Below, piece by piece: positions 10,215 through 64,000 of a DNA stretch of 64,000 nt. The stretch comes from Lingula anatina. Lineage: Eukaryota > Animalia > Brachiopoda. The notes beneath the pieces are model-generated. The model searched no databases. It saw only the letters and a list, made by a program, of their open reading frames with translations, and was not told the DNA's origin. Numbering within the stretch: the stretch's first letter is position 1; the number at the start of each line of letters is the position of its first letter. The stretch spans positions 2,108,001 through 2,172,000 of the forward strand of contig CM120645.1 of assembly GCA_051362555.1 (NCBI GenBank), in the 5' to 3' direction. The position numbers and the translations under genes are program-made.

Positions 10215-10905
10215 ATGGCAACAGCAATAGAGTCATACACCGGTTCCGACCAGGAAAATTATTTCCGTCTGTGCATTTTAATTGTAGATTATGCCCTGAA
10301 AGTCTTGCAACATGTTCTTCAGAAAGAGCTTGAATCAAACTATCCCAATTTATTTGACCCGAGCACGGGATTGTTATGTGGGGTGCTTGGTGATGGAACT
10401 GTCAGAAAGAAACTGTTTAAATTACCACGAGGAGTATTTAATAAGCAGCAAAAAGACCAACTGTATCCCGCTGGAAATCCCTCCACATCAGTAACTGTTG
10501 GTGATTTAGACATCACACTGACTGTTCTCTTGCTGAGAAACATCACAAAACTGGTAACCGGGTCCAATGCATGGGACAACCCCTCTGACAGCGATAGGTC
10601 AACGGAAGCCAAGATTGGTCGAGTTAAAAGATATCGGAATGTTGAGTATGCTCATATAAAAGAGACAGCAATCAACTTGGATGTTTTCCGAAAAAAATTC
10701 TCAGATCTCAAGTCCAGGCTCCTGGCTCTCTCTGGCAGGTACAGTGGTGAGGAATACGACGACATCTTGCACAGACCTCTTGACCCTGGTTTACTTAAGG
10801 AATACCAAGACGTTATGAACAAACTGTACAATAATGACAAAGAGGTGAAAGAGTGGATGATGGAGAATCGTGATATGCTCAATAAAATCGATTTAAGGAC
10901 AATAG
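10215..10905 (+). CDS. Copy 1 first coding exon: DZIP3/hRUL138-like HEPN domain plus coiled coil
   Basis: Motifs NYFRLCILIVD, QQKDQLYP, DLDITLTVLLLRNI, WD.P..D, and RVKRYRNVEYAH (HEPN Rx4-6H; R codon 10635, H codon 10653). Acceptor ends 10162, donor GTTGGT at 10906. Confidence 0.85.
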
Positions 10906-18398: not shown

Positions 18399-18501
18399 AC
18401 ATATGTGTTAAGTCTCGTTCACATATGCAAAATGAAGTCTATTTCAAGATGTGGATGCTTTAGCACAGTTGTGATATTTTCATCACCGAGCAATGCTAAA
18501 G

Positions 18502-23650: not shown

Positions 23651-23687
<37 letters not shown>

Positions 23688-25614: not shown

Positions 25615-25682
<68 letters not shown>

Positions 25683-36320: not shown

Positions 36321-38849
36321 TATTTTAAATTAGTGCAGCCTAGTTTTTAGATCGGTCCTGGTTATTGTCAACAACACCTGATTCTGCTGGGTCGATCGGT
36401 TCCAATTTTAAAGTTATTCATAACTTATTAAAGTATTGGTTGCGCAACTGCCTTGATAGTAGCTGGTAGAGTGTGGCAGCCGGTTGGGGGTGGGCGGGGG
36501 GGGGGGGGGGAGGGGGCGCTGAGCCCACCTCTGGTGGTAAAATCACTTAGGTCCTTTGGACAAAGATAAATTAAACATTGTAAGTTTCAATTTGTTTGAA
36601 GCCAACATAGAAAAGTAAAGCCTACGTATAGCTTGGCACAAAAAAGTAAGATCCTTTTCAAGAAATCTTTTCCCATTTTTAAGGTTCCTGTAAGTGAATT
36701 ATTTATTGTGCAATAATCATAACTTTTTTACACCTCCACCCCAACAGAACTAGACCACAAGGTTTTGAGGTTTTGGTTTTGAGGTTTTGAGAAAATTGTT
36801 CGCGTCTACGACACCCATAATTTGGTAGGCAAAAGAAGTTTCAATAGAGCAGACACCCCTCTACCGCAAATTGGTTTGATTGCCTCTGACTCGTCAAGAT
36901 ATGACGTCGGTGCAAATTGTGCATAGTAATAAGAAATAAAACATACAGTATTTGTATCAATACTGACACCTAAAATCTCGGTGCTTATAAGTTTTGTTTC
37001 CCACTGGAATTCTGTGTGGACGAATGGTTATTCTCTTAATTAAGCACTCCTCATTTTTTAAACATATACGTAATTATGTGCTTTATATGTACATGTAATT
37101 TGATAAGATAAGTAAAAAAAATCACATCAGCGTGTTGTTACATCTATGTATTTTTCATCTTGTGATCAATTCCTCCATACCTCCAATTCCTCTCAATATA
37201 GTCATTGATCTGTGTTGGCGGGTCAGCTATGAAAATATTGGAGGTAATATTACTTGTCAATATTGGCTGTTAAATGAATAATTTTTTAAAACTTTATTCT
37301 CATAATATAACACATCTGATAAAACTCTTCTCTGACAAAGAACAATTTATTGACACGATCGATATGCATTCAGTTGCGTTTTCCTGCTAACAAATGCCAA
37401 TTTTACAATAATTAGACCCGTACTTTAGACTTGATTCCTTGATCTGTTAAGCCAGATACAACTGCCGGTTAAACATATTACCACTTTTTTGTGGTTTGGA
37501 ACTTTTCTGATTATTATATACTTGCTCTATTTTATTAAAAAAAAACTGAAATAATTTAATCCAATTTGTAGGAACTCGTTCAGATGGGGATCTTTGTTAT
37601 CAGCCGTTTTTATGAGCCTTAAATTTACACCTAAAACGCAATCTTGAATTTGATGAAAACATCACAAATCACTATACCCGAATTTATCGAATTTTGTCGT
37701 ACTGTTGGGCACTATGCCCTTACTATTAAGCCATAATTCCAAGTACGTGTTAGATTGGTACCTGATATAATCAGAAATAACGCTTGATTAGGTGCAAAAA
37801 AGGGGAACTCAGACGCCATTTCGCACTTAAACGCAGGATGGGGATCAACATCGACCATTGTAAGCTCCCATGCAGCGTTTTGTTTTCTCACTTGAATCAC
37901 CTGCACAAAATATTAGCCTGTGTTGAAGACATTAGCAACGGCACAAAAGTTCTAATTCAAAGCGCATAATGTCAATACCGTTGTATGCCTTTCAATCAGT
38001 TGGGTCAAAAGAGCAATTTGGCATTGGGTCACCTAATAATACAATGCCATTGTTCTGTGAATTTCGCTTAAATTATAAAACTTGGATGATTAAATGATAG
38101 CAATGGTCCGGAAAATATGAACGGTATTAAAACTTGATAGCAAGACCCTGGTGCCTCATATGTATGTATCAACCACAGGGAACAAATTTGAGAATATCAG
38201 ATGACAATTTAGCACTGAAAATATTTTATGTCGCAATATCAACAATATCACCTGACAGCCTTTGACAGAAAAGTGCCTTGGCATGAATAATCGATACATT
38301 AAAGGACTCCAAAACAAAAGGATTTTTTCCACAGATCTGGACCTCCCACTGATGTTAGAGCATTAAGGTCCAATAGCACATAAAAATGGAAGATCCTTTT
38401 GGGATAATCTTTTTCCATCTTCTATACCCTTTCTGTACCATTATTTTATATCCATTCAAAAAAACCACGTTTCTTAACTTTTTTGGTCAAGCGTATACTA
38501 AGTGTACAAATGCACATACTAATATAAACTACATCGCTCTTCATCATCATCATAATACGCCCTTCCCCCAAACGTTTACAGCCAGCGTTTATTCTCCTCC
38601 AGCATTCAGCAAGCCTGTGACTTTATTCCCCATTTATTTAGGACACGCATCTTTGTTTCTCCTTGTCATTTCCATTTGCTGTATTCCATCTATTCACATT
38701 AAAATATTTCAAATTTATTTGTTAAAAAATGATGCATTAGATACTTACAATTTGATGTAATTAGACCCACAATGACTGGTAAAATTTCCATTTTCTATTC
38801 AATTTCAGAGGAGGCACGGAAAGACATAGAAGTGACAGATACCAGAACC

Positions 38850-39573
38850 ATGGCAACAGCAATAGAGTCATACACCGGCTCCGACCAGGAGAATTTTTTC
38901 CGTTTGTGCATTTTAATCGTTGACTATGCCCTGACGGTCTTGCAAGATGTTCTTCAGGAAGAGCTGAAAAAAAAGTACCCCAATTTATTTGACCCCAACA
39001 CGGGGTTGTTATGTAGGGTGCTTCGTGATGGAACTATCAGGAAAACCCTGTTTAGGTTACCAGTATTTAATAAGCAGCAAAAAGACCAACTGTATCCTTC
39101 TGGAAATCCCTCCACATCAGTAACTGTTGGTGATTTGGACATAACATTGACTGTGCTTTTGCTGAGAAACATAACAAAACTGGTAACCGGGACCAAAGCA
39201 TGGGACAACCCCTCCGACAGCGATAAATCAACAGAAGCCGAGATTGGGCGAGTTAAAAGATATCGGAACGTTGATTATGCTCATATAAAAGGGACAGCAA
39301 TCAGTTTGGATGTTTTTCGAGGAAAATTTTCAGGTCTGAAGTCCAGTCTCCTGGCTCTCTCTACTGTACCTCCCAAATACACTGCTGACGATTATGACAA
39401 AATTTTGTTTAAACGCCTTGACACTATTGGTCCTGATTTACGGAAGGAGTATCAGGACGCTATGGAAAGATTGTACAATTATGACAAAGACTTGAAAGCC
39501 TTAACAGACACAGTGAACAAAAACCACGAAGAAGTTATGAATCAGTTAAAAACAAATGAGGAGAATGAAAAAG
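38850..39573 (+). CDS. Copy 2 first coding exon: DZIP3-like HEPN domain plus coiled coil
   Basis: Paralogous to 10215-10905. Retains DLDITLTVLLLRNI and RYRNVDYAH. Acceptor ends 38808, donor GTATCC at 39574 (phase 1). Confidence 0.85.
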
Positions 39574-41800
39574 GTATCCAAGTTTTGTTCATTTAGACAT
39601 AGATACACAATTTTGGCTAACATGACGTTCTCAGGAGCAACGGTACTGCCAACATATCCTTGGCCGTATATGACTTTGAACGTAATGAATGAAAACAATG
39701 AAAATAAATATTTTAAACCGCACAATGTTCCAGATGAAAAACAATCTTCATTCTTAAAGCCCTCTTTTGAATTTATATACCCATGAGTGCATGTGTTTTT
39801 TTGTTTACAGGCATTCATGAAACACTTAAGGTGATTTGTGACAGGTTGCCAGATACACAAGAACAACGAAAATTTTCAGGTAAATATGCAGTAATAAACT
39901 CCAGGCATAAGACACCTGATACATTTATGTACAGAGATGTTTCTAATCCACTGCTAATTGACATTATGTTTTTTTTTATTTATTTATTTTTTTTGTGATA
40001 TTTCAATCGCAAGTGGCTTAATAAATAACTTTGTTACACTCAATATAAAGTTATTTGAGGTGCTTTCATATATAGTGTGATACAACTGAAGATTCAGTTC
40101 TTTTATAAGTTATGATAAGAAAACCTTCCATTTTGGTTATAAGATATGTAACTGAATATAATGCAGGTGATAGATTAAGCTTCCACCAGACAGCCTGTTC
40201 TGGCACCCTTCTGCTTCTATGTTAAAGGATATCAATACGTTTCCAAGGTCCAAACTGGTCAAAACAGCTTTCCTCCGTTTTAAATGTAGAATACTTATCT
40301 AAATATTAGTGCAATCAAATAAAAAAGTTCCAGGGCAAAACGTCCCTTTTGTGGTTTTCTTCACCAACCCACGAACTTCTTCTTTCAAGCTCTGTCCTCA
40401 TTTGTCCTCAGTTTAACTGCTTTGCTTATTGATGCAAGATATTGTGATCGATTTGTGACGTAACTCCGTAAGGAAGTGATATAGATTATATGGGTGACGA
40501 CAATGTTATGAAATACAATACGTCACCAGCATCTATTATTAGTTCATTTTTTAAGAGATATGAGCCTCTAATTACTGTTTCAACTGACGAAGACTTCATC
40601 TCTCGTATTTACTGATAAAATCAGGTATGACCTTTCAAGGAGATCAATTGGCACCAGAATGCACTGCTTACTGTTGAGATTTAAAATGGTGTTGATAACT
40701 GTTCAAGAAAATCGAAAATAGTTTTCAACACAAACCCCAGGTTTATTTTTGATGTAAGAACAGTATTATTTCATAACATGACTATGTTTGTTACTGCATT
40801 GCCTTAATGGATAAGGACATAGACCTGACGTATCAGTGAAATATTACAGCATCCACTTAATGCATTCACCAGTCAAACTGGAAGAAATGATGCACTTAAT
40901 TTCTACTATAACACACTTCAATAGACATATGAGAAGACGAAAACATTATGCAACCCAAAAATTTCTAGTAGCTTTGCATGTCGTCGCCTCTTGTGCAATG
41001 GTGATAAAAAGTAAAAGGTATAAGGCATGATTTAAGTTTCACCCTTATTCAAAGGGAGTTGGTCATATGATTGGAGCGTTCTCTTTTTTTCAGAAATGAT
41101 GTTTATTAATTTTACTTTGTAATTAACAGTTTATTTTGACGTATAAAAAGTCTACGTATGTTCAAATATTATTATTCAGCATTTTATTTATTTGGTAGTA
41201 AAGGGTGGGGGAAGTACAGTGGTAGTTGCAAAATATATTTAAATATTGTACATCATTTTTATATACATGTAAATATCACTTAGGTTTTAAATATGGTTTT
41301 CTTTTCACATGACCCTAGGTCTAGGTATGTTTAAACATAATTATTACAATAGTTGAACTTTTTGTGGGTTGAGGGGGTGTGATGTAATGATGCAATAAAT
41401 CACTAATTATAAATATTTTTAATTTTTAATACATGTACGTTGTTACAATAACATAGTGGAAACTACAGTGGTAGTATCAAAATATATTTAAATATTGTAC
41501 AACATTTGTATATAAATATAATTTGTTTCTTCAATATAGAATTTGAATGTTTGCAGGATGTATTCACCAAGAAAACAAACTTATATGCATTTCTTATTTT
41601 ATTTTCCAGGAAAACGCCGGATTGGAGACCCACAATTCTCAAAGCATCCTGCAAAACGTAAGTTATATTTTACTCTGATAAACAACAAAGTGACAATTTA
41701 AATCAGATGAATCAGCAATATCACATTTGTTATTTAAGTGGTCAGTAATCACAGTATTTTTATCAATGTTGATGTGGGAGACAGTGCAGGCACAGTTTTA

Positions 41801-42676
41801 AGCCTCGGTCATAACTGGACGCACGGATTTTAGGACCGTAGGTCCTCTACCAATTTTGGGTGCAGTGGAGGTCGTGGGGTTCGTAGAGGTAGAGGAAAGT
41901 CTACCTTGCAAATTGCAAGGGCCACATGATATTTCCCTTCAAGCAGTGACGCTAATTGCAAGGAGCGATGGCCGTGGAAATTGTACTCATTTATTGTATT
42001 CATTTATCTCTCACCACTTACGAAGGGAATGCAACGCACGGCGAAATTAGTACTCTTTTGCGTCAGTTTTGCTTCACACTTGCTTCACACTTGCCTCACA
42101 CGCCAGTTTTGCTTCCTGTTCTTCTATTCTTTCTTCTTCCTCCTCCCTTTTTTTCTACTATGGAAGCTTCTTTCCCTTGCCTTTTGGAGGCATATTAGAA
42201 ACTAAACTGAGCAAATATTTGAAATTTTTGAAAATTGTTGTACGCGTAACACAGTCGACGTTCATTGTAAAGACACGAGCGTGCGTCGTGATCACGCCTT
42301 TTATACACAAGGCGTGGGGGTGACGCACGTGCGACGCATTCCCGGTGTGCTCTCGACATTGTTTGTTAGTTGTGAGGACGTGCACCTTACTCAACACGCA
42401 AAAGGGCACTTGCTCCTTTATTGCTTGCATTGTGCGTCTTGTACAACACGGGTCTCTCTTGCTAACTCCGTGCGAGGGAAGCAAGTTACGCTTGCGACCT
42501 CGCTGTTCGCAGGCTATCCGTAGAATCTTTTGGACATGTCCAACGTCTTCCGTACGTGCTAACGGGCTGTCTGCGAACTTGAAATTTCGTAAGGACTTGC
42601 GTGGGACGTGAAATCTGCGCAAAATTTGGACGCAAACAGCCCGCAAGAGCCCGTACCGCTGGTTGTGACCTAGGCT
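41801..42676. mobile_element. Non-autonomous TIR element, PIF/Harbinger-like, in a copy 2 intron
   Basis: Termini AGCCTCGGTCATAAC / GTTGTGACCTAGGCT within TTAA or TTA/TAA flanks. Absent from the paralogous intron of copy 1. A related fragment lies at about 56985-57365. Confidence 0.65.
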
Positions 42677-42873
42677 TAAGATGTACTTGTAATGAAGTGT
42701 CCCCCTTCAATACGACTGTGATAATGATCCAAATTACCACACGAGTCCTTTAAATGTATATTATATTATACTAGAAACCAATGAGACATTTATGTTCTAT
42801 GCACCTTTTCTTACTATCTTTAAACTTGTTTGTATTATACAGTGCAAATATTGTAAATAAAATATATGTATAT

Positions 42874-43263
42874 AAGCTTGAAAAGTACTCAAAGAGCGCA
42901 GATCTCTGCCAAGGCAGCAAAGTCTCCATCCAATGCCGTTTCACCCCTAAATTTCCGATATTTTTTATCATTGATTATTGATTGATTTTTTATCCGGATC
43001 ACCGCCAAAAACTATTCATCTGTTCCTCGGCCCACTCCTGAAAATTTCATCAAAATCGGTCCATAACTTAGTTTTTTTTTATTATTGATTGATTGTTGAT
43101 CACCACCAAAAACTAATCACTTCTAAGTTAACCCATTTCTGACCTACCCTGAAAATTTCATCAAAATCGGCCCATAACTTTCTGAGTTATATTGATGACA
43201 AACAGACAGAAAGACAGACAGTAAGACAGTCCTGTGAAGACATAACCTCCTTGGCGGAGGTAA
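42874..43263 (+). mobile_element. Helentron-associated (HINE/DINE-1-like) non-autonomous element
   Basis: Two tandem core repeats (GAAAATTTCATCAAAATCGG.CCATAACT), a GACA microsatellite, a 3' stem-loop ACCTCCTTGGCGGAGGT and a matching subterminal GCCAAGG near the 5' end. Confidence 0.65.
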
Positions 43264-43306
43264 TATATCTAATTTATTTCGTGTATTGTAAGTACAGGAA
43301 ACTTAA

Positions 43307-43961
43307 AGTCATAATAACTCAAGATTCGATTTGGCCAAAAATACGATTTTCCTGTAAAAAACGGCAATTTTCCCGTACTTACCAATGGTCAACGACCCCA
43401 TTCCTGCATTCAAAGTTAAACCAGGTTTTTTTTCCTAAACGTACGGTTTTTTGTTGAAATCTCTTAAGAGATTTTATCTGACGGAGCCCTCTCTCTAACA
43501 TGGCAGTCACGCGATATCGAGCGATAGTTTCTGGTGACCTACTTAAAACCGCGGGAAAAGCAGACAACAACGACACTATATATCTATATTAAAAGATTTA
43601 TAAGATATATTCGTCTTATTGCCCAAAATGCATTTATATCTACAATGTGTGCAATTCTGGGCTTTTCGTTATCCGACGCACTGTACAAAAACTCGCAACT
43701 TACGTCTGAAGGTTTCCCGCCAATGTTATTTTGGTCTCGAATGAACGCGAGAATCCGCGTGACACCTAAATGTCATTGGCAACGGATGCACTTGTCGACC
43801 GTGAAGAAAGGCATCGAAAGCCCAAGTGACAAGCACAGATTTTAGTTTTACTACAATAACAGTCGTTTTAGTGGGAAAATGCAATAGAATATATTTCCAG
43901 GCGTTGTTTACAATGTATTTCTTGATGAATTTTTAATCTCAAAGGAAGAGTTATTATTGCT
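43307..43961. mobile_element. Kolobok-like non-autonomous element
   Basis: TTAA on both sides (43303-43306, 43962-43965). Short TIR AGTCATAATAACTC / GAGTTATTATTGCT with AG...CT termini. Flanks join in the paralogous intron at about 14731-14760. Confidence 0.7.
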
Positions 43962-46781
43962 TTAAGTCTGTGAACACTTGAACTGCAGCATTCCTCGACG
44001 CCCTCCAGTGTATTTTTTATGGGACAGCATTATCTCTTGACAGGATAATGTTTAATTCTACACTATCTAAAAGAATCAGGAAATAAAATAGATCAAAGAC
44101 AACTTATCAAACTACCTTTAAATACGTCCACTGGTCCATCAGTCAAATTGTAAGAAAGGATCATACATACGGTGTTGATTCCTTCTAAGCCATAAGGCGT
44201 TTAGTAATTGCTTCATCATTCAGAGATCCTTGTTTCTACTACATACATGTACTCAGCACTACTAGTGTGTATTCGCTGGTGAGCCTACGTTTGGCCAATC
44301 TCTTATGAAGTACTGTCACTGTGACTCGTCTATGGCCATTTTTTCATGTCAATCAGTATTGCAAATTATATGTTTGTCCATTTGACACCTTTGCTGCTGT
44401 GATTTTGATGACCATGTCAATTATTTATATATTTCATGACTTCTTGATCGTCACCCATTTTATTTCATCTGTTCCAGGAAGCAATTAATTGTATCTATCC
44501 TTGTGATATTACAGTATATATGCACATGTATAACACGTTTATATTTCCCTCCAAATCAGGTTCTCGAAGGAGATCTTCTTCCCTGTCCGACAGCGAAGGT
44601 TCTCCAGTACCCTCAACTTCCACAAGTAGCCAAAAACCTGGACGTCACCACAAGCAGAGGGCTAAAAGTGGTAAGATTTAGAAAATTGAAAATATATATT
44701 GTATGCTCATTGTATCTGTGCCAGATTGTTTATCAAAACATGGTTTCTGTAATACTGATACCGATGTACAGATATGCAAACATAACTTGTTAACAATATT
44801 TCCATCCAAATCAGGATCTCAAAGTAAATCTTCTACTCTGTCTGACAAAGATTCTCCAGCACCCTCAACTTCCGCAACTGGCCAAAGATCTGGAAACTCA
44901 GAACGGAGGAGTAGACGTGGTAAGACCCGGATATTTAGAAATATTTAAATTGTGTATGCTCATTTTTACGTTACGATAAATTATCCATAGAAGTATATAT
45001 ACATGTATACTGATGCTCCTTGAAAGATCTACATTATAGTTGTTAAATTTAACAACTATAATGTAGATCTTTCAAAGTGCATCAATATATATACTTCTAT
45101 ACGGTGAATTAAGATAAATTATCCACAAACCTTAATGTTTTTTATAAATTCTTAATAGCAGTCAAGAGAAGATGGGATTAAATATGATGTTCTTTTCACA
45201 TGGCCCTATTATATAGGCCTACGTATGTTCCAATATTATTATTCGGGATTTTTTTTAATTTTTAGAAAAGGGTGGGGGAAGTGCAGTGTTAGTTTCAAAA
45301 TATATTTAAATATTGTACAACATTTATATATAAATATCATTTGTATTTCACATATAGAATTCGTGTTTGCACGATGTATTCACCAAGAAAACAAATGCAT
45401 TTACTTTTTTGTTTTCAAGGAAAACGCCAGATTGGAGACCATAACCCACAATTCTCAAAACATCATGCAAAACGTAAGTTTTTATTTAGTTATTATTTTA
45501 CTTTGATAAACGACAAACTGTCAAAGCAGATGAATTAGCAATATCGAATTTTGTTATTTTAAATTACGAACTTTTCTTTTCATATACTAAGGGTGTGGTC
45601 AATAGTTATAGTATTTTTTTCTACCAGTGTGGATGTGGGAGCCAGTTCAGGTACAGTTTTATAATGCGTGTTTGTGTGTGTGTTTGGTGTGTGTATCTGC
45701 ACGTGTGCGTGAATGTGTATGTGTGCCTGTTGTGAACGTGCGTGTGTCCGTATGTTTGTGCATATGAACGTGTGTTTTTGTGAACGTGTGTATGTGTGTG
45801 TGTGTGTGATCACTTTAGGATATATCATGACTATAAAATATTCACCATCATTGCATTAAATATTCACCACATAATTTTACATTGGCTTCAAAAACGATAC
45901 ACGAGTCCTTTTAGACTCTATATTCTACGAAACTAGGAACCAACGAGAAAAATATGTTCTATGCACCTTTTTCTTACTATCTTAAGAAATGTTTGTATTA
46001 TACAGTACAAATATTGTTAATAAAAGATATTTATATAAATAAATCTTATATATTTCATGCATTGTGAGTACAGGAAGACTCTGTGAAACATTGAACCTCG
46101 ACGCCCTTTAGTTTATGGTGGCTTGGTCAATTTAGTTAAATAGACTGAGCTTAGAATGTCCTATAATTACATGAATAATTACTAGTGTGAATTACATTGT
46201 TAACAGCAATCATGTTATTTTTGTCCCCATCTAGATTATAAGTAAGACTGGAAAAATATTTACTTATAACATTGACGATACCGTTTTTCATATAAAATAT
46301 GTTTCTTTGCAGGCACCAAACTTAAAACAAGGAAGCCAGATACCTGCTATCAGGTAATGTACTGTACATGTAATATATGTCGCTCTACATTGTGCTCAAC
46401 ATCTTGTTATAACTACTTAATAATTTCATAAATGTTTGAATATCAAGATGTCAACCGTTCCTAATCTTCCATGTCCATGTAATATATATAAATGTAGGGA
46501 CTGTTTGGAGGTAATATTGGAGGTAAAACCTATCTCAATATTAGCTGTTGTCTGAAGAAGAAACCACATCATTCTTGTAGGGACAGTTTGTAGTGTGAGG
46601 GGCTGTATGTCTACAGACCCTGCGTGATTATTTTAATACTGCACGCACTAATCAATTGATATTTCAGCCAGATAATGCTGACAATAAAAGTAGAATATGA
46701 GGCAATGTAATTATTGGTTATACCACGTTATAATATCTAATGTAATCTAAATAAACTTTGGATTTATTCCCCATTTTCCAG

Positions 46782-48698
46782 GCACCTATAATGAGACCAA
46801 CACACAAAAACCTTTTGGTGAAAATGAGACACATGTTTGTAGATAATCTCCAAGTTGAGAACATCATTCGGGACATGGTAGCCACGAACATATTTAGTAA
46901 AGACAATGCAGAAAAGGTAAAGGCTAAAGAAACAGAAAATGATAAAGCTTTTGAATTTCTTCGTATTCTACCAAAATGTGGTCCTCGTGCATTTGAAACA
47001 TTTGTTGAAGTGTTGAGAAAACACAATAAGAAAGAACTTGCAGATTTGTTAGAAGAAAAAGCGACTGCTTGCAGTAGTAAAAACCAAATAGCGTCTTACT
47101 ACATAAACTACATGAGTCAAATACAGCGTCTTCCCTGGGACCCTGACGACACAATGCACTTAGATGACGTCTATGTTAACCTGCAGTGGGTACAAGAAGA
47201 AAGGAAACCAGCAGGTACCAGTTCTGATCCAATCGAGAGCTATACATCAATATTAGATACCAAACAAGGTAAGACACCAAAGAGAATATTGGTAAGAGGA
47301 AAAGCAGGCATCGGCAAAACCACATTTACACAGAAGATGGCAACAGACTGGGCAAATGCCACACTGGGTTTAGGAGAATGTGATGAAGTCCTTTTGAAAT
47401 ATAAACATGTTTTAATAATAAATCTACGCAGCATTCAGCCTGGTCAAACACTGAAGGAAGCAATGGAAACGCAAATCACATGTCCTGCTGAAAATAGAAA
47501 AGCAGTGACAGATGAAATCATGCAAGCTCTAGACTATGACAGTGACCATGTTCTGTTGGTCTTTGATGGTTATGATGAATATGATATCAACACTTCCACA
47601 GAAATCACAGACATCATTTACCGAAGACGATACCAGGATGTGTGCACCGTCATCACAACACGTACGTGGAAGGCAGAAGAACTGATGAACAGACGAATAA
47701 TGGACGGTGCGTATAAAATCACTGGGCTAACAAAGGACAACATAGCTGAATATGTTGCTAAATTCTTTAGTGATAAACAGAAATATGATGAGTACCTGAG
47801 GTCAGTATACTGTTATGGTGTTTGGGATGTATTTTGTTCAATAGGGAAGGGTCTCGTAGGCTACATACACGACAAAGAGCTGATGTCTTTGGTGAAGATC
47901 CCAATAATTCTACTGTTCATTTGTCTTATGTGGCAAGAAGATCAAGAAAGTGATGCTCGGACAGATTCACTCCCAGCTTCATACACACTGCTATACAAGA
48001 AACTAATACAGTTGCTTTTAAGACGAAGGTACGGCTTCAGGACACAGGATGAATTGGAACAGTCCGCATGTGTTCAAAAACTTGAAGAACAAACATTTAT
48101 CAGCCTTGGCAAGCTGGCTTACGATGGGCTGGTGAAACCAGATGGGGGTCTCATATTTGATGAAAAGGACCTGCAGACAATTTCAGATGTCAACGAATTG
48201 TACAGTTTAGGTCTACTTAGCAAGTGTAAGGTTCACAGTAACCTTGATGTAAAATACGAGGTAACTTTTCCACACAAAACAATTCAGGAGTTTTTTGCGG
48301 CAAAATACCTAGCGAGGAAATTAGACCAAAATGATAGTAACATTTTCGATAAGTTATTGGAAAACTTAGACACCACTGACAAACTCTATGACATGAGCTA
48401 TGTGCTGCGCTTTTTGTGTGGGTTATCTAGGAGAGCAACTGTCCACGTGCTACATAAAACGAAATCCCTACTTGTGAGACAAAGCATTGAAGCTATTAGA
48501 ACGGGGTATTCCCATTTCCCTGAGCTTTTTTTGCTCAGTCGCGTATATAGAAGTTATAGCCAGTTGTGTAATTATCTCCTTCTAGAACACTGGTATGCCC
48601 ACTGTCCCCAGGAAACAGTGCTGCCCCCTGAGCTTATCTCCTGCCACACGGTGCTTTGCATACCTGGATCATTTTATCACTCTGATCCCAGATTCTAG
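46782..48698 (+). CDS. Copy 2 CARD-NACHT coding segment up to the premature stop
   Basis: GKAGIGKT, LLVFDGYDE, ITTR and FPHKTIQEFFAA intact. The frame continues open for about 1.1 kb (to 49793) after the TAG. Confidence 0.88.
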   Translation, partial: APIMRPTHKNLLVKMRHMFVDNLQVENIIRDMVATNIFSKDNAEKVKAKETENDKAFEFLRILPKCGPRAFETFVEVLRKHNKKELADLLEEKATACSSKNQIASYYINYMSQIQRLPWDPDDTMHLDDVYVNLQWVQEERKPAGTSSDPIESYTSILDTKQGKTPKRILVRGKAGIGKTTFTQKMATDWANATLGLGECDEVLLKYKHVLIINLRSIQPGQTLKEAMETQITCPAENRKAVTDEIMQALDYDSDHVLLVFDGYDEYDINTSTEITDIIYRRRYQDVCTVITTRTWKAEELMNRRIMDGAYKITGLTKDNIAEYVAKFFSDKQKYDEYLRSVYCYGVWDVFCSIGKGLVGYIHDKELMSLVKIPIILLFICLMWQEDQESDARTDSLPASYTLLYKKLIQLLLRRRYGFRTQDELEQSACVQKLEEQTFISLGKLAYDGLVKPDGGLIFDEKDLQTISDVNELYSLGLLSKCKVHSNLDVKYEVTFPHKTIQEFFAAKYLARKLDQNDSNIFDKLLENLDTTDKLYDMSYVLRFLCGLSRRATVHVLHKTKSLLVRQSIEAIRTGYSHFPELFLLSRVYRSYSQLCNYLLLEHWYAHCPQETVLPPELISCHTVLCIPGSFYHSDPRF

Positions 48699-49793
48699 CA
48701 GGTTTTGTATGACAGTGTAGACAGTTTATTGGCCAGTCCTCAGATATACTCTGGTATGCTCAAAGGTTTGATTGCTGTCAGTCTTGACAGCCACATGTTA
48801 GTTACAGAAATACCAGACGATATACTTACCAGAAGACAAGAAATAGAGCACAAACTTTTATCTTTACTCAGAAAGTGTGACATGTTCGAGGAACTAGCAG
48901 CGGTTCTTTGGGAGGCTAGATCTGACAGTTTTGATGATTGCACATATACCTTGAATCATGTTTTATCAAAAGCTCCTAATCTTCAATCACTTGAAATAGT
49001 CATAGATTGTAGTGGAGTACTAGGTCTATCATCAATACCAAACCCTGGAAAACTGTTACATCTGTATGTCAGTGAGATAAATCGTCAAGACTGGCAGGTG
49101 ATCCAACAGATGGTACACTTGGAGTACATTCGTGTAACTAAGGATTTCGGTGAAGAATCAATAATGCCAAGAGCCCCACTTCCTCAACTGGGGGAAATAC
49201 CTAATACCAGTCATGATTTGACTCACATAAATATTAGAAATACCCCTCTTAGTGCCGTGGGTGTACATATTCTGGGGAGGAACCTTCACCATGTGCCAGG
49301 GCTAGAACATCTGCGACTGAACTGGGTATTCAAGGGGAGCTCTGAGTGTGGGCCTAGCAGGTGTACATGCCCTAGGGGTGAAGATACGACAGACTATGAC
49401 AGATGTCAGGATGTCTGTGAAGCCGTGAGTGAACTGAGCCAAGGTGTGATATACACCACTAAACTTACAAACTTCTCATTCAGTGGCAATTACTTGGGTC
49501 GGTACCACGGTATCACCAGTCCACTGATAGCATTGATACAATCTCTCAGTACAGTGTCAGAGCAGACTGGAATGGGGATTGACATGACCTGTAATAACCT
49601 GGGCAGTGTTGACCGCCTCAGTGAGCTGATAGAAGCCATTGTCAGCTCTTACCAGCATGTATCATCTTGGAACCTTTGGGGTAATGGCCTTGAAAAGAGA
49701 CTCCCAAAGCCAGACGACAGTCTTAATTGTCAAGTGCCACATTTTTTTTTGAAGCATAAAGTTTCTAATTGGAAACCTGAACATACGTGTTAA

Positions 49794-52830: not shown

Positions 52831-53119
52831 ATACAATAACGGTCCGTGTTATTTGTATAAAAAAAGGTAGAAAAGGCGTAAGGTGAACGCACTGAAAAAC
52901 AAAGAGGCCGATGTTATTCTCACCCAGGGGAACGAGAGAGGGAGGGTGTGAACGTCGCCGATTCCCGCCGGAACTTATTGATACTAAAATGTTCATGGTA
53001 CAATGATCACAAATATATTAAACCAATGCAGAGGCACATATTTTCCAACAACAATCACATCATGATATATGAACTTAAAATGATAGTACACATGATAGTT
53101 ATAATTTTCATTGCATTTT

Positions 53120-56100
53120 GATCGAAGCATTCTGTTTATCTTATTAATATTACATGTATTGGCAATGTCTTTGCTACAGTGATCTTCAAGTCATGGCAAG
53201 TCAAACGTCCTTGCAGTCCTTAATACGCTGATTGCATTGTCACAGCTCGAAGTAAATAATGATTTGGTTTAATGTATATATGTGGTCATACCTGGGAGTA
53301 AAAATAATGGTTCCTGATTTTTATAAGTATTGTCAATATAATTTACAATTGATCCCTAATGACACTTGTATGAGGCATTTGAAAAAAAACGTGATAAATC
53401 CGCATTTCCTGTATATAAATAAATATAAGAATAAAATAATAAATAAAGAAGAAATATAACCACAAAGTTTGTTTTTAATAGATTCACTGTGAACCGAACA
53501 TGCTTATGACTAAAAATCACATGAAAACTGGCCACGTTCACAACGCATTGTCCAGTCACAGGTGGTTTCTGTTTGTCGAACCGCCAGAGTTAAGTCCAAC
53601 TTCCATCTAGCAAAAGCAGATGACTTAATTACTACGAGATCACCTGTCCGACCTAAATGTCCTAAATTGGACATTATTTTTAAAGTAAAATCTCTCTTTC
53701 TGCGCTCTTCATGTATACATGTATCACATCAATTGTACTCTATGGAGAAAAAATTATGTGCGTCATACATGTAGAGCTGTCATACACATAAAAGTCTAGT
53801 TTTTATTTCGAGTTCGGTGGAATAATTAACATCGTGGATATTAAATAGATAACACCCGGCTTCAGTCCGTTCTATCTGATTCATAGTCAGTGCGTCATCC
53901 ATATACACCGCAATATTTATTCAGATAAGAGCCTGTGTCAGAGGTCAGCACCCATGTTATCATTCGCCATAATATAAGGAGCTTCTGTGCGCAGTCTCAT
54001 CATTTGAAGGTGGAGTCGAGATGCTGTACACATACAAAACATTGTTTGAAGTCATCGAACTTTGATGATTGAAAAGTTTGAAAAAGAACAGATCAAAGTG
54101 GACATCACTTGCTGCAAAGGCAATTGTAGAGACTATTTTGCGATGAAAGCAATGTTTTTTTGGAAATAAGAAGCTTCAGTACCAGATGACTACCCGACAC
54201 GAAAAATATTTATAAGGACTCATAATGTCAACATCACCTGACAACATTTGAGAGACGCCATTTGTTACTCCATTAGAAGAAAATCTTAATGCAGCTTAAT
54301 GAATGTCACTTTTGAAGACTTAAAATGTAAAAGGACTCATCTTCATGATGGAAAAATCTGACAAAACGTCTTTGTGCAAGAACTCATTGGGCATGGAATA
54401 CAAATGATGTATTTTATCTGCTCAGTGTAGAAGACTTTAATGAACTTTTCTGAAGAAATACTGTAAAAGACCGAAGATAGATTGATGTCTTAGAGGTACA
54501 GTTTGAGGCTTACTATTTGCAAACTCTCTCTCTCTCTCATATATACTATACCTCTTTCTCAGTCTTGTACATGTAAACAACATGGTAAATTCAAAGTTAA
54601 ATGCTTCCTATGTGTTAATTTGTCCCTTTTTTCCAGCTCTCTCAACCAATAATAAGATTGAAAAGTATTTGCTTCCCTCATCCCCTTCTCTCTCCTTTAT
54701 CTCCCCCTCGCCCCTCCCCCTCTCTCTCCCCCAGCCCCTCCCCTCTCTCCCCCTCGCCCCTCCCCTCTCTCCCCCAGCCCCTCCCCTCTCTCCCTCTCGC
54801 CCCTCCCCTCTCTCCCCCAGCCCCTCCCCTCTCTCCCCCAGCCTCTCCCTCTCTCCCCCAGCCCCTCCCCTCTCTCCCCCAGCCTCTCCCTCTCTCCCCC
54901 AGCCCCTCCCCTCTCCCCCCCTCTCCCCCAGCCCCTCCCCTCTCTCCCCCAGCCCCTCCCCCTCTCCCCTCTCCCCTCTCTCTCCCCCAGCCCCTCCCCT
55001 CTCTCCCCCAGCCCTTCCCCTCTCACCCCCTCGCCCCTCCCTCTCTCCCCCTCGCCCCTCCCCTCACTCCCCCAGCCCCTCCCCTCTCTCCCCCAGCCTC
55101 TCCCTCTCTCCCCCAGCCCCTCCCTCTCTCCCCCAGCCTCTGCCTCTCTCCCCCAGCCTCTGCCTCTCTTCTCCAGCCTCTACCTCTCTCCCCCAGCCCC
55201 TCCCCTCTCTCCCCCAGCCTCTCCCCCTCTCCCCAGCCCCTCCCCTCTCTCCCCCAGCCTCTCCCTCTCTCCCCCAGCCCCTCCCCTCTCTCCCCCAGCC
55301 TCGCCCCTCTCTCCCCCAGCCTCTCCCCTCTCTCCCCCAGCCTCTCCCTCTCTCCCCCAGCCTCTCCCTCTCTCGCTGTCTTGATATACAGGTATTAGAG
55401 GCACAGCATGGGTCTTACTCTTAACTACCATCACAAAACCTTCTTCTCTTCTCTGTCAACATATACATTTGAATTAACGATCTGTTTTGTGTAACATTCC
55501 TAAAATCTATTTGGTTACAGCAAATGCAAAGAGTGGTATTTTTTTCAATCTTTTGTATGTTTATTTTGAACAAAAAAAGACAAAACTAATAAGACTTAAA
55601 GCTGACACGTAGCTGACACCTACACGAATTACAGTTTGTTACTGATATTACAAGCCCCCTATTAGTACAGCCTAGACTTAGGTCCTGATTATTAACAACA
55701 TCACCTGATTTTGCTGCGTGATAATTTTGGAGTAATAGATAACTTATTAAACTAAGTGTCACTGTGTACAACTGCGCTGATTCATGTAGCAGAAGTAGGG
55801 TGAAATATAAACATACAGTGTACGACGTTTAACAATTAAATTTACATTTTCTACTTATGTTTTCCGTTGTAGGCCTAAACTTTAATAGACAACAGTCATC
55901 ATTTCATTGTCTTGATTGTATTTGTCTTTTATGTATGATGGAAACCCGTGTGTCCGCATGTAATTATCAAGGTTAATAATTGTTTCGCTATTGTCTTCCC
56001 CGCCAGCTTGATTCAATGTAAAATGTATCATATCATTATATCAATTAAGCAGACACTTTACTTCTGCTATCAATGCAATTGTGTACAGCTACTCTTAGTT

Positions 56101-59574: not shown

Positions 59575-60768
59575 TCAGAAGAGGTTGAAGATATAATAAG
59601 CAAAACGAAAATACAATAGAATTATTTAAAGGACCCATGGTGGGAGTAACACCAGATTTATTCGCGGTGAATTTGTGTAAGTCAAATCGATCTTCGAAAG
59701 CCGACTTTAGCTGTTAAAGGTCACACGTGTTCGGCTTTCTTCACATCTTATTGTATTGCTAGGGTCTATGATCACACTTCCCTGTTTTATTAAGATTTTA
59801 ACCTTAAAATAATTGTCTATATTCGTTCGTTAAACCCTTTGTCGGTTGACAGGACGAAGTGTCGCTTTGTCTTCAAAACAATAGCTTGTCGCTTGATATA
59901 TATGTCAAAGGCCCGGACCAAATCTAGTCCTGTGCATAAAAAGCCAAGACCCCATGTTTATTACGCACTGGCTGGGCCTATTCTATATAGTCTTTGCACT
60001 TTTAACAGCATAATGGGCAAGTTAATTGACCAAGTTAATTGGCCAAGCTGCCAGTTTGTTTGTATGCCACACCTGATTTTTCATTACTTCGTTATTTCTA
60101 AGGGCCTTATTTTAAATTACAAATCTAAAATAATATTTGAATTACATCATATTTGGATCATACCCAAATATCAGTTTTAATGTGTTGTACTATGTACATG
60201 TAGCAGAAACTTCGATTGTTTAATTAACCAATATAATAAAACTATATGTGACTTTGATATTGACCATCTTTTCTTGGGACGAATATAATTTCTACCCTTG
60301 TTGACTCATGAGTAAGTAAATTTAACTTGAGTTCAATAACTCGTTAGGTTTGAACTTATTTGATTTTACTTAACTTGCCATTTGCAGTAAGTGAAGGCTT
60401 GAGCCACTGATTTAACTTTACAGCAGTATAACCATTAAAAGTGAATGAAGTTTCAAAATTAATCATTTCCCATCTAAATTATTTTATGGTCTTTAAAATC
60501 AAATTAAAAGGATGTCTTGTCATGCCGCAGAACATCAGTTGCATAAAAATGAGATGAAAAAAAACAAAAAAAAAAAACAAAAAAAACAAAAAACAAAACA
60601 AAACAAGATCATTAACAGTCTTCATCAAAAGAGCAACTCAATTAAGGCTATTTTTACTTCATCTGTTTAGTATCTTAATTTGGTTTTAATTTTCACAGGC
60701 AAACTCAAACGAAAAGATTTTGTCTTTTCAGGGTTAAAACAGATTTCGACCAGAAGACGAATTTCAAC

Positions 60769-63700
60769 ATGGCGATTGAAACAGATGTTGTGACAATAGC
60801 CGTGACTCTATTTCTGTTGGTTATACTGATGGTATTTTTCTTCGGAGATTGGTTTTCCTTAAGGAGAATATTTGGTGGTACGTAATGCATACATGTTGCT
60901 TCTCATTACATAATGCCCTTATATGTTATAAACATTATTACGAGGTTAACATTATTAATAAATAATTAATTAACATAATAAACATATAATAAACATTCGT
61001 TTCCTTCACACCTCTGGAGCATTCAGCATGCCTGTGTCCGTATGTCCCATCTACTATAGGAACATGTATCTGTTCATGTCATGTATTTTTCCTTGTTCCT
61101 TCTCCTTGCAATTTCCAGTTACTATACAAAACTGTATACTATTTCTTCAAATTGAATTTTTTTAAGGTAGATCGGTCGTTACGTAATTTGACGATTTGCG
61201 CAATTTCAGCGCATCGTCAATCGTCTCTAACGACATTTAAGTTTAAGGTATATTTGTATTTTTCTTAACAAAATTCGTGAGACAATTAATAAGTTGAAAG
61301 TAGTGGCTATTCTGCAGATGAAAAACGATCGACACTCTTAAAATCCTCAGCTGAATTCTCACACTTATGTTTGAGAACTACAATGCATTTGTGTTTTGTT
61401 TACAGACATTCAGGGAAAAGTTCAGGTGATTTATGACAGGGATCAAGGTAGATCAGATAGTCGGAAACAGCCAGGTAATATTATACTACAGTGTATGCCA
61501 GGTTCAAAAACTGATGTATAAATGTATGGAGAAATATCATGTCTACTGCTGATTGACATAAGTTATGGTTTCTAATACCTAACCATTCTACACTAATTTC
61601 TGGTCACCAAAATCGATGTTGACAAACTAGATTTAATTCAAACAGATTCACTGTACAGAAAGGCGAGACACACGGGGGCTTCCAGCCACTCTCCCCCGCC
61701 CCAGTACATGAAGGTTACTCCCTCCCCGCCAAAAAAAAAAAAGAAAATGTATAGTTTTTGAGTGTCAGAAAATTTTTCAAAATTGACAATTTCTGGATAC
61801 AAGGAGTGAAAAAGTCAGTTTGTTTGAAAAAATCTATTATACAACAAGGCGAGACTCCCAGGGCTCTCAAAGCATTCTCCTCCGACCTACGTGTACTTAT
61901 AGAATGTTTTACCCTGTAGACATAGATATTTTTGCAAATAATAAAGTTGTCCAATCACAGTGGGCAAACAGACCATCAGTTAAAAAAATCACATCGAGCT
62001 AAAATATAATTTCACCTGAACTGAATACATTATGTTTACAAATGATATAAGTACTGTATTTGTAAATTATGCATAACATATTTTATAGAAAACGGCGAGG
62101 ATCGTGTTTTCACACACAATATATTTCGTTTCAGGCGATTCACTCCATGCAACCAAACCAGATACCACGTGTCAGGTACCGTCATTATATATCTGTCTAC
62201 TTTGTGATCCATTATAAAAAGCATAGATAGTACGGTGATATGCATAAAGGAAGTTCTTGTATTAAAAAGAAGAGAATAGTACAAAGCTAGACAAATATAC
62301 ATGTATGTGACAAAAATATTTCCTTTTGGTAGAGGGTAATCTTCATCAGATTCTTTTAATTTCAACCCCACTGTAATTTAAAAGTGTAATTGTGTACACA
62401 CGTTTTTATAACGTCATTCGACCATAGATTACAAGCTATAAAATTGTGTTTTATTTTCTGACATTTTCACCTGGAATAAAATATCACTATAGCCAGCAAA
62501 CCCCCCTTTTTTCATTTTAAATTACACTCTTTATGGAAGTCTCTATAGTGCTTCTAGCTGAAATATAGGACTTATTTATCTGCGATTTTACTGTACACTT
62601 ATCTAGTATCCCATGATTTTCAGTCACCTATAATGAGTCCAACACACAAAAACCTGTTGGTACAAATGGGTCCCGTGCTGATAAAAGATCTTCAAGTTGA
62701 AGATATTATCCCGGACATGGTAGGCAGGGGAATCTTCAATGAACGTAATGCAGAAAAGGTAATGACTCACAAAACAGAACAAGAACAAGCTTTTGAATTT
62801 CTCCGCATTCTACCAAAATGTGGTCCTCATGCATTTGGAACCTTTGTCAAGGTGTTGAGAAAACACCATAAAAACGAACTTGCAGATTTGTTAACAGAAA
62901 AGGCAACTGAATCCAGTAGTAAAAACCAAATAGCAAATTTCTACATCGATCACATGAGCCAGATACAGCGCCTTCCCTGGGATCCCGACGACACAGTGCA
63001 CATAGACGAGGCATATGTTAATTTACAATGGGTACAAGAAGACAGAAAATACACAGGCACCAGCTCCAAGCCAGTCACGTCTTATACCTCAATATTTGAA
63101 GATGTCAAACCTGGGAAGAAACCAAAGAGAATATTGGTAAGAGGAAAAGCAGGCATCGGCAAGACCACATTTACACAGAAGATGGCAACAGACTGGGCAA
63201 ATGCCACACTGGGTTTAGGAGAATGTGACGAAGTCCTTTTAAGATATAAACATGTTTTTATAATAAATCTACGCAGCATTCAGCCTGGTCAAACACTGAA
63301 GGAAGCAATGGAAACGCAAATCACTTGTGCTGCAGAAAATAGGAAAGCAGTGACAGATGAGGTCATGCAAGCTCTAGACTATGACACTGACCATGTTCTA
63401 TTAGTCTTTGATGGTTATGATGAATATGATATCAACACTTCCACAAAAATCACAGACATCATTTACAGAAGACGATACCAGAATGTGTGCACCGTGATCA
63501 CAACACGTCCATGGAAGGCAGGAGAACTGATGAACAGACGAATAATGGACGGTGCGTATGAAATCACTGGGCTAACAGAGGACAACATAGCTGAATATGT
63601 TGCTAAATTCTTTAATGATAAACAGACATATGATAAGAACTTGGCAGTGCCGTCAGGTTGGCAATTCTATGATAAGCGTAGGGTTATATTGAGTTCAATA

Positions 63701-64000
63701 GGGAAGGGTCTCGTAGGTTACCTAGACGAAAAAAAGCTGATGTCTTTGGTGAAGATCCCAATACTTCTCCTGTTCATTTGTCTTATGTGGCAAGAAGATC
63801 AAGAAAGTGATGCCCAGACAGATTCACTCCCAGCTTCACATTCACTTCTATACAAGAAACTAATACAGTTGCTTTTAAGACGAAGATACGGCATCAGGAC
63901 ACAGGTTGAAATGGAACAGTCTGCATGCGTTAAAAATCTTGAAGAAGAAACATTTATCAGCCTTGGCAAGCTGGCTTACGATGGACTGGTGAAACCAGAT
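60769..64000 (+). CDS. NLR paralog 3 (3' incomplete): N-terminal transmembrane-like helix-short linker-CARD-NACHT
   Basis: Exons 60769-60877 (aacATGg; MAIETDVVTIAVTLFLLVILMVFFFGDWFSLRRIFG; donor GTACGT, phase 1), 61406-61474 (69 nt, homolog of 11299-11367), 62135-62175 (41 nt, homolog of 14984-15024) and 62624 to window end. All in frame. Confidence 0.75.
62624..64000 (+). CDS. Copy 3 CARD-NACHT exon, runs off the window (absent from the ORF track)
   Basis: Manual translation SPIMSPTHKNLLVQM...LRILPKCGPHAF...GKAGIGKT...LLVFDGYDE...ITTRPW...LGKLAYDGLVKPD has no stop. Phase-0 acceptor TTTTCAG ends 62623. Confidence 0.92.

What the first reader, a model, noticed from the sequence alone, without database searches (positions are those of the whole stretch)
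60699..64000. Effector swap: the third paralog replaces the HEPN exon with a transmembrane-anchor exon
Seen: copy 3 keeps the homologous 69-nt and 41-nt linker exons and the CARD-NACHT exon, but there is no HEPN sequence upstream. Instead a 109-nt coding exon (ATG 60769, phase-1 donor at 60878, same phase as the HEPN exons) encodes about 19 uninterrupted non-charged, mostly hydrophobic residues (VVTIAVTLFLLVILMVFFF) followed by GDWFSLRR. It is too short to appear in the ORF track. Inference: a signal-anchored, membrane-tethered CARD-NLR made by exon shuffling, next to soluble HEPN-bearing paralogs with near-identical NACHTs. This could be a sensor/helper set able to co-oligomerise at a membrane.
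Basis: partly seen in the sequence, partly recalled or inferred. Interest (0 to 1): 0.9.

Follow-up and report, generated by a model that had tools for sequence, protein, structure and literature searches.

The report
Membrane-anchored immune sensor that lost RNase
A likely brachiopod immune-receptor gene keeps a small exon predicted to anchor it in a membrane but has deleted the neighbouring predicted RNA-cutting domain, so it is not an exon swap but a stripped member of a family of likely membrane-tethered RNase receptors.

Summary
The sequence observation holds; the 'swap' does not. The hydrophobic exon (ATG 60769, donor 60878) is real. RNA reads of close homologues in 3 of 6 runs laid use its acceptor and donor, and in-frame stops lie upstream of the ATG. 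But those reads splice on into a HEPN exon, and two Lingula anatina RefSeq proteins carry the same anchor directly in front of HEPN. Copy 3's first intron is a scar: pre-HEPN intron, a short repeat, post-HEPN intron. So the anchor exon is the family's normal first coding exon; copy 3 deleted HEPN (about 1 kb), while copies 1 and 2 lack the anchor. The predicted product is anchor-linker-CARD-NACHT with intact Walker motifs. No read matched the window's own allele or its anchor-to-linker junction, so its expression and function are unshown; a neutral deletion allele is a serious rival. The more interesting result is the family: single-pass anchor + HEPN RNase + CARD + NACHT, with anchor and RNase gained, lost or inactivated separately. 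I found no such architecture in ten literature searches, but the main Lingula immunity paper was not available.

The parts
53100..54495 (+). Repeated 5' unit; its 3' end (donor after 54495) is the likely upstream non-coding exon of copy 3
   Evidence: Read ends upstream of the anchor exon match donors in this unit; in-frame TAG just before the junction. Pairing of this particular copy with 60732 is inferred.
60732..60877 (+). Anchor exon: 37 nt 5' UTR + 109 coding nt from ATG 60769; predicted reverse signal anchor, residues 7-26
   Evidence: homologous to the N-termini of P0131 (score 120, 0/2000 shuffles) and P0003 (score 56, 0/2000)
60979..61161 (+). Left arm of the deletion scar: remnant of the intron that precedes the HEPN exon in copies 1 and 2
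   Evidence: Best two of 248 tile comparisons are 38586-38723 and 9922-10114 (scores 74, 61; next 43); 0/200 shuffles each
61162..61236 (.). Short palindromic dispersed element at the junction, between 12-nt direct repeats (61161-61172, 61242-61253)
   Evidence: Reads from elsewhere begin and end at 61156/61162 and 61236; hairpin -16.5 kcal/mol; repeats; no second copy in the window
61237..61405 (+). Right arm of the scar: remnant of the intron that follows the HEPN exon
   Evidence: Matches 11091-11298 (score 173) and 39666-39810 (69); next best 40
61406..61474 (+). 69-nt linker exon (phase 1-1); end of the predicted long helix that follows HEPN in relatives
62135..62175 (+). 41-nt linker exon (phase 1-0)
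   Evidence: low read depth at >=90% likeness in X7 and X9
62624..64000 (+). CARD-NACHT exon of copy 3, open to the window end, Walker A and B intact; internal ATG 62633
   Evidence: Pfam CARD E 2.4e-11, NACHT E 2.5e-21; motifs and dN/dS 0.37-0.42; fold matches NLRP3/NAIP5/NOD2
10163..18398 (+). Copy 1: HEPN (Rx5H intact) - linkers - CARD - NACHT - C-terminal region; no anchor exon; ATG 10215
   Evidence: 11-nt insertion after the HEPN acceptor, TT instead of GT at 13574
38809..49793 (+). Copy 2: same layout, no anchor exon, ATG 38850, premature stop 48696-48698

Best explanation
Copy 3 is a member of a brachiopod NLR family whose full form is predicted membrane anchor - HEPN RNase - linker - CARD - NACHT - C-terminal repeats, and it arose by deleting the HEPN exon, which would leave a membrane-tethered, RNase-less CARD-NACHT receptor that likely signals through its CARD. 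History (shown by sequence and reads): the anchor exon normally splices to the HEPN exon; about 1 kb around HEPN was lost and a short repeat sits at the break. Both flanking splice sites are phase 1, so the anchor can join the 69-nt linker exon in frame. Copies 1 and 2 show the opposite state: HEPN kept, anchor exon absent, start at the HEPN exon's own ATG. Each module (anchor, HEPN, CARD) begins with its own in-frame ATG, so any upstream module can be dropped. Topology (inferred): a 20-residue uncharged helix with net negative charge before it and positive charge after it inserts N-out/C-in, probably first at the ER, leaving everything else cytosolic. Action (inferred from NLR and HEPN biology, recalled): ligand binding opens the NACHT, which oligomerises. 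In full-length members this would bring HEPN domains together into composite RNase sites at the membrane face and cluster the CARDs. Copy 3 would keep CARD clustering but add no RNase, and, with a 93% identical NACHT core, could dilute RNase pairs in mixed oligomers.
For: Reads: of 79 reads laid on the exon in X7, X8, X9, 36 run on past 60877 (9, 19, 8) with a consensus that matches the copy-2 HEPN acceptor at 23 of 30 letters in register and the linker exon at 9 of 30 (counted by eye); a 15-letter part of it has only 2 matches in the window, both HEPN exon starts. Proteins: P0003 (XP_013379433) is anchor-HEPN-CARD-NACHT and P0131 (XP_013389015) is anchor-HEPN-linker. Scar. Tree: P0003 lies outside the clade of copies 1-3 (100/99), so anchor+HEPN is older than these copies. 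Start codon: in-frame stops upstream in reads and in the upstream exon. Anchor kept: 16 coding variants among reads, no indel or stop; 5 of 5 changes in residues 8-25 stay hydrophobic. Charge bias N -2/-3/-2, C +1/+2/+2 in copy 3, P0131, P0003. AF2 gives a separate helix 5-26 in P0131; its HEPN part ranks HEPN proteins Csm6 (Z 7.3, rmsd 3.8, 119 aligned) and AbiF (Z 7.1, rmsd 4.2, 148 aligned) first. A second RNase-null anchored member exists: P0131 lost the motif Asn and His that are >=90% conserved in 85 HEPN sequences. Copy 3's frame is open, dN/dS 0.37-0.42.
Against: No read on the anchor exon was >=99% alike to the window (0 of 79), and four positions differ in every read, so the window's allele was not seen. 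None of the three predicted copy-3 joints was listed in 4 runs (threshold 3 reads). None of 10 Lingula NACHT proteins found has anchor without HEPN. The 5-of-5 hydrophobic result has chance probability 0.07, and I set the core at 8-25 after seeing V7D at its edge; with residue 7 it is 5 of 6. The left arm of the scar is only moderately similar and was tested against mononucleotide shuffles. dN/dS sums history on both branches and does not show present function. The window ends before any LRR. Foldseek found no HEPN match at E<=0.001 and VIA Z near 7 is common for helical models. Membrane insertion, RNase activity and oligomerisation are all untested.
Confidence: 0.55

Rival explanations
1. Same history, no special function: copy 3 is a neutral or decaying deletion allele of an anchor-HEPN-CARD-NACHT gene in a fast birth-and-death cluster.
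For: Reads 90-95% like the anchor exon carry HEPN, and reads also lie on the copy-3-type 41-nt exon, as expected if other animals have this gene intact. The cluster shows decay: stop in copy 2, lost donor and 11-nt insertion in copy 1, five copies of the 5' unit for three genes. HEPN/NACHT clusters vary between haplotypes in pearl oyster (PMC9646362, passages).
Against: All splice sites and the frame of copy 3 are intact; RNase-null anchored forms seem to have arisen twice (P0131); the lower agreement in X7 (0.76 of 9 reads) leaves room for a minority with another next exon.
Confidence: 0.28
2. The missing HEPN is an assembly error (mis-join at the short repeat).
For: A dispersed repeat lies exactly at the junction; no DNA run holding the stretch was listed; no read matches the allele.
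Against: Copies 1 and 2 have no copy of the element on either side of HEPN, so a collapse between two copies has no model in the window; both arms are in the right order and orientation.
Confidence: 0.07
3. One reading: a new transmembrane exon was shuffled in to replace HEPN. A softer form: copy 3 is a recombinant whose 5' part comes from a more distant anchor-HEPN paralog.
For: Copies 1 and 2 have no recognisable anchor exon (0 further hits in 2102 six-frame pieces). The left arm of the scar is much less like copy 1 than the right arm is, which fits a mosaic origin.
Against: Anchor and HEPN occur together in reads and in two RefSeq proteins; the intron after the anchor is the pre-HEPN intron. 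Even the recombinant form is a loss of HEPN, not a recruitment of a new exon.
Confidence: 0.05
4. The hydrophobic segment is a cleaved signal peptide or is bypassed, with translation starting at the CARD ATG 62633.
For: ATG 62633 is in frame, and three RefSeq models (P0001, P0002, P0005) begin at the equivalent Met. No SignalP/DeepTMHMM was available.
Against: No basic n-region, a long 18-20 residue core, and aromatic or charged residues where the -3 position would fall (by eye, rule recalled); CARD, NACHT and HEPN are cytosolic domains; ATG 60769 has A at -3 and G at +4.
Confidence: 0.05

Closest known systems
DZIP3/hRUL138-like HEPN-NACHT(-LRR) proteins of invertebrates (PF18738 + PF05729)
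   Same: Same HEPN family with Rx4-6H, fused to CARD/NACHT, in tandem clusters. Described in PMC3710099, PMC9646362, PMC8260672, PMC8662601 (passages read).
   Different: Those passages treat them as cytoplasmic and name no N-terminal anchor. Of 150 HEPN relatives scanned, 3 had a hydrophobic segment with a basic flank just before HEPN, all Lingula. Copy 3 has no HEPN.
Anthozoan transmembrane NLRs (connexin-like N-terminus) and sponge NLRs with weak predicted TM segments
   Same: NACHT receptors predicted to be membrane-bound (PMC3879445, PMC5094078, PMC12909245 passages; bioRxiv 10.64898/2026.06.13.731801 abstract and section 5).
   Different: Those have 3-5 TM helices forming a channel-like domain, or weak 1-2 TM signals; here one short anchor on its own exon precedes HEPN and/or CARD.
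IRE1 and C6orf70 (single-pass membrane proteins with a cytosolic HEPN-type RNase)
   Same: For the full-length paralogs: predicted single-pass anchor with a HEPN-superfamily RNase on the cytosolic side (PMC3710099 passage).
   Different: No luminal sensor (about 6 residues precede the helix) and no kinase; activation would come from a cytosolic NACHT. An analogy, not homology of the whole protein.
Crassostrea virginica TM-DED-TRADD-N expansion with variable STAND or HEPN C-termini
   Same: A lophotrochozoan lineage-specific expansion that puts STAND NTPases or HEPN behind a transmembrane helix (PMC8195603 passage).
   Different: It has an extracellular cysteine-rich domain plus DED and TRADD-N; domain order and anchor type differ.
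Vertebrate CARD-NLRs (NLRC4, NOD2) and NLRP3
   Same: Closest solved relatives of copy 3's CARD-NACHT by sequence (NLRC4 E 2e-6) and fold (NLRP3, NAIP5, NOD2 E 4e-8 to 8e-8).
   Different: They have no built-in transmembrane anchor (recalled); identity is only 14-19%.

Membership tests
NLR (NACHT + LRR, N-terminal effector) | NACHT domain with intact Walker A and B | tested here: met
   Pfam NACHT E 2.5e-21; motifs found
NLR (NACHT + LRR, N-terminal effector) | N-terminal death-fold domain | tested here: met
   Pfam CARD E 2.4e-11; helical bundle in the model
NLR (NACHT + LRR, N-terminal effector) | C-terminal leucine-rich repeats | tested here: inconclusive
   Copy 3 runs off the window at 64000. 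Pfam found no LRR family in the C-terminal parts of copies 1 and 2, although RefSeq names close relatives 'NACHT, LRR and PYD'.
NLR (NACHT + LRR, N-terminal effector) | Ligand-triggered oligomerisation | not testable with these tools
   Needs biochemistry
DZIP3-like HEPN-NLR | HEPN_DZIP3 domain N-terminal to NACHT | tested here: not met
   Absent from copy 3; present in copies 1, 2 and P0003. Copy 3 is a derived, HEPN-less relative.
DZIP3-like HEPN-NLR | Rx4-6H RNase motif (in the paralogs) | tested here: met
   Intact in copies 1, 2 and P0003; altered in P0131 and P0004
DZIP3-like HEPN-NLR | RNase activity and HEPN dimer | not tested
   No complex prediction was obtained; activity needs an assay
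Anthozoan connexin-like TM-NLR | 3-5 TM connexin-like N-terminal domain | tested here: not met
   One hydrophobic helix in a 36-residue exon; no Pfam family on it
IRE1-like membrane RNase | Luminal sensor domain and kinase | tested here: not met
   Six residues precede the helix; no kinase family in Pfam scans of P0003, P0131 or the window ORFs
Reverse signal anchor (N-out/C-in) | Long uncharged core near the N-terminus, more positive charge after than before | tested here: met
   18-20 uncharged residues from position 7; N -2 to -3, C +1 to +2 in three homologues; rule recalled
Reverse signal anchor (N-out/C-in) | Uncleaved and membrane-inserted in cells | not testable with these tools
   No SignalP/DeepTMHMM here; needs a reporter assay

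The most novel reading that the evidence does not exclude
Lingula has built an IRE1-like branch of NLRs: signal-anchored HEPN RNases switched on by a cytosolic NACHT, assembled from plug-in exons (anchor, HEPN, CARD) that each carry their own start codon. Copy 3 and the catalytically dead P0131 locus are independently evolved RNase-null membrane scaffolds that tune mixed oligomers and recruit anchored HEPN-caspases, giving a combinatorial sensor/effector code on one membrane.
Probability: 0.22. Interest if true: 0.82.

Novelty: new variant of a known kind. Interest (0 to 1): 0.55.

Why it matters
HEPN-NLRs are abundant in corals, bivalves and other invertebrates, yet the passages read offer only predictions of their function. 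A family in which a membrane anchor and an RNase are present, absent or inactivated independently offers natural controls for asking where these receptors act, what RNA they cut and whether RNase-null members regulate active ones. It also adds a single-pass anchored NLR type to the few known membrane-bound animal NLRs. Short anchor exons like this are easily missed: several RefSeq models in this family start at the HEPN or CARD methionine, so anchored forms may be undercounted. Copy 3 itself matters only if it is expressed.

Tried and rejected
No whole genome was held, so neither the rest of copy 3 nor other loci could be read. No indexed RNA or DNA holder was listed; nine raw RNA runs were offered by species label and six were laid. 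X1 and X4 had almost no reads on the NACHT exon and X5 had none on the anchor exon: no test. Idea that the anchor exon's 3' end is a remnant of the HEPN exon's 3' end: 0/200 shuffles in a narrow test but 19/200 in a wide one, and reads and P0131 show a native end; rejected. Idea that the anchor peptide derives from HEPN sequence: no better than shuffles. A candidate exon at the equivalent place in copy 2 (38335-38485, ATG 38386, phase-1 GT; broken in copy 1) shows no similarity to the anchor exon (857/1000 DNA, 1502/2000 and 686/2000 protein shuffles; 157/2000 against P0003) and is weakly hydrophobic (1.74); left unresolved. A 20-letter read motif for the upstream exon found nothing; a shorter degenerate one found four sites. 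Sixteen short ORFs, mostly from the repeated 5' unit, gave no Pfam match above cut-off. The bacterial promoter scan was uninformative. HEPN profile against PDB sequences: nothing under E 0.1. Foldseek on the HEPN model: nothing at E<=0.001. HEPN homodimer prediction: no verdict, queue full. ESM Atlas unreachable. Earlier scan findings: none returned. Gerdol et al. 2018 on Lingula immunity was not held.
Full report
Setting. The window is animal DNA with three tandem NACHT genes on the + strand. Pfam finds HEPN_DZIP3 at 10137-10922 and 38733-39593 and CARD plus NACHT in all three large exons. The 8 best relatives of copy 3's CARD-NACHT exon are Lingula anatina RefSeq proteins at 60-81% identity; the next is 29%. 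Copy 1 is almost identical to P0001 in this region. I take the window to be Lingula; no genome was held to confirm it.

Observation. The hydrophobic run is 20 uncharged residues. No HEPN sequence lies upstream of copy 3. The NACHT cores of the three copies are 93% identical; the CARD of copy 3 is 67-69% identical to the others.

The exon is real. Nine raw RNA runs were offered by species label; six were laid. In X7, X8 and X9, 13, 45 and 21 reads lie on the exon; X5 gave none. Depth is confined to about 60728-60877, with one or two reads reaching slightly further upstream. Loose ends fall at the acceptor (35 reads at 60730/31) and at the predicted donor (36 reads at 60877). Variants create in-frame stops upstream of the ATG (60736, 60751), and the upstream exon ends in a stop in 3 of 4 window copies checked, including the one before copy 3. 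ATG 60769 is therefore the start. Among 16 coding variants there is no indel or stop; the 5 amino-acid changes in residues 8-25 are all hydrophobic (chance 0.07; V7D lies at the edge). The libraries look unstranded; the splice sites give the orientation.

But it is not a swap. The reads leaving the donor continue into a HEPN exon: the consensus matches copy 2's HEPN acceptor at 23 of 30 letters in register, against 9 of 30 for the linker exon (counted by eye), and a 15-letter part hits only the two HEPN exon starts in the window. Agreement is 0.95 and 0.97 in X8 and X9 but 0.76 in X7, so a minority with another next exon is possible there. Two RefSeq proteins show the same order: P0003 (XP_013379433), anchor-HEPN-linker-CARD-NACHT, and P0131 (XP_013389015), anchor-HEPN-linker. 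Their N-termini align with copy 3's exon at scores 56 and 120, above all 2000 shuffles. P0003 branches outside the clade of copies 1-3.

The deletion scar. Copy 3's 528-nt first intron has three parts. 60979-61161 matches the intron just before HEPN in copies 2 and 1 (the best two of 248 tile comparisons, scores 74 and 61, next 43; 0/200 shuffles each). 61237-61405 matches the intron just after HEPN (173 and 69, next 40). Between them lies a 75-nt palindromic element that reads from other loci enter and leave at its edges. Relative to copy 1, about 1 kb including the whole HEPN exon is gone. Both remaining sites are phase 1, so the frame survives. The left arm is less similar than the right, so a recombination between paralogs is also possible; either way HEPN was lost.

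Copies 1 and 2. A profile of the three anchor peptides finds nothing else in 2102 six-frame pieces of the window or in the other 278 of 280 fetched proteins. These copies keep the pre-HEPN intron and have upstream donors like the exon that feeds the anchor exon in reads, so they have probably lost the anchor exon and would start at the HEPN exon's own ATG. Copy 1 has an 11-nt insertion after the acceptor that would break the frame from an anchor exon unless an AG two bases on is used; copy 2 has a stop at 48696.

The wider family. The same HEPN module is fused in Lingula to an IIGP GTPase, RIG-I-like and DExH helicases, TPR-NTPases and a CARD protein. P0133/P0277 carry a different-looking anchor, HEPN and a caspase domain. 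Of 150 HEPN relatives, 35 had at least 19 residues before the core and 3, all Lingula, had a hydrophobic segment with a basic flank there; three others scored just above 2.0 without that pattern. Many database proteins are partial gene calls, so this undercounts.

Mechanism. Shown: exon order, splicing of homologues, deletion, intact CARD-NACHT frame with dN/dS 0.37-0.42 and an NLR-like fold (model pLDDT 67). Predicted: a separate N-terminal helix and a HEPN fold nearest Csm6 and AbiF (modest Z), with N-out/C-in topology from the charge bias. Inferred from recalled NLR and HEPN biology: NACHT oligomerisation pairs HEPN domains into active RNases at a membrane and clusters CARDs. Copy 3 would cluster CARDs without cutting RNA and might dilute RNase in mixed oligomers. 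Not shown: that copy 3 is transcribed. No read on the anchor exon was 99% alike, many NACHT positions differ in all reads, and none of its three joints was listed. A few reads lie on its distinctive 41-nt exon or carry its letters at 61415 and 62624, which shows only that a close allele or paralog is expressed.

Literature. HEPN-NACHT fusions are well known (PMC3710099, PMC9646362, PMC8260672, PMC8662601: passages). Membrane-bound NLRs are known in anthozoans as connexin-like multi-pass proteins and weakly in sponges (PMC3879445, PMC5094078, PMC12909245: passages; bioRxiv 10.64898/2026.06.13.731801: abstract and one section). An oyster expansion puts STAND or HEPN domains behind a TM helix (PMC8195603: passages). 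Exon gain and loss is documented for Lingula RLRs (PMC8998645: passages). Ten searches returned no description of a single-pass anchor-HEPN-CARD-NACHT protein. Gerdol et al. 2018 was not held and no supplements were read; either could hold it.

Verdict. Observation confirmed; interpretation partly supported. History as HEPN deletion: about 0.9. Copy 3 as a working anchored, RNase-less receptor: about 0.55. New variant of a known kind; interest 0.55, most of it due to the anchored HEPN-NLR family rather than to copy 3 alone.

Noticed in passing
window 2500-3911, 6380-7250, 26190-27600, 32280-33664, 53100-54495: A unit of about 1.4 kb is present five times; its 3' end carries the donor of the exon that reads splice onto the anchor exon. 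Two copies precede copy 1, two precede copy 2, one precedes copy 3. Further fragments lie at 9525-9620 and 38174-38270. It has no Pfam match and may be a decayed coding exon.
   Followed up: partly
window 38335-38485 and 9685-9835: Candidate exon with acceptor, ATG (38386) and phase-1 donor upstream of copy 2's HEPN exon, weakly hydrophobic, broken in copy 1; no significant similarity to the anchor exon.
   Followed up: partly
window 48696-48698: Premature TAG in copy 2's large exon, before the C-terminal region.
   Followed up: yes
window 13237-13573, 14045-14098, 41610-41657, 44560-44919, 45420-45473: Symmetric phase-1 Ser/Arg-rich linker exons, duplicated and reordered between copies 1 and 2 and absent from copy 3; the donor at 13574 is TT in copy 1.
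   Followed up: partly
window about 22500-25620, minus strand: 3' exons of an SLC26-type anion transporter between copies 1 and 2 (STAS hit at 23147-23485, E 1.2e-4, just under cut-off; other exons recognised by eye).
   Followed up: no
window 35169-36063, minus strand: Decayed Tc1/mariner-like transposase (DDE_3, E 4.5e-8).
   Followed up: no
proteins P0122, P0123, P0124, P0125, P0133/P0277, P0137 (Lingula RefSeq): The same HEPN module heads an IIGP GTPase, a RIG-I-like receptor, a DExH helicase and TPR-NTPases, follows a weak DED match in P0137, and sits between a transmembrane segment and a caspase domain in P0133/P0277.
   Followed up: partly
protein P0002 (XP_013389014): CARD-NACHT followed by a C-terminal region that looks by eye like a trypsin-type serine protease (motif recalled; no Pfam hit); probably the 3' half of the anchored dead-HEPN gene P0131.
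   Followed up: no
window 18480-19440: A long near-perfect inverted repeat (fold-back element) just downstream of copy 1's stop codon, absent from copy 2; seen by eye.
   Followed up: no
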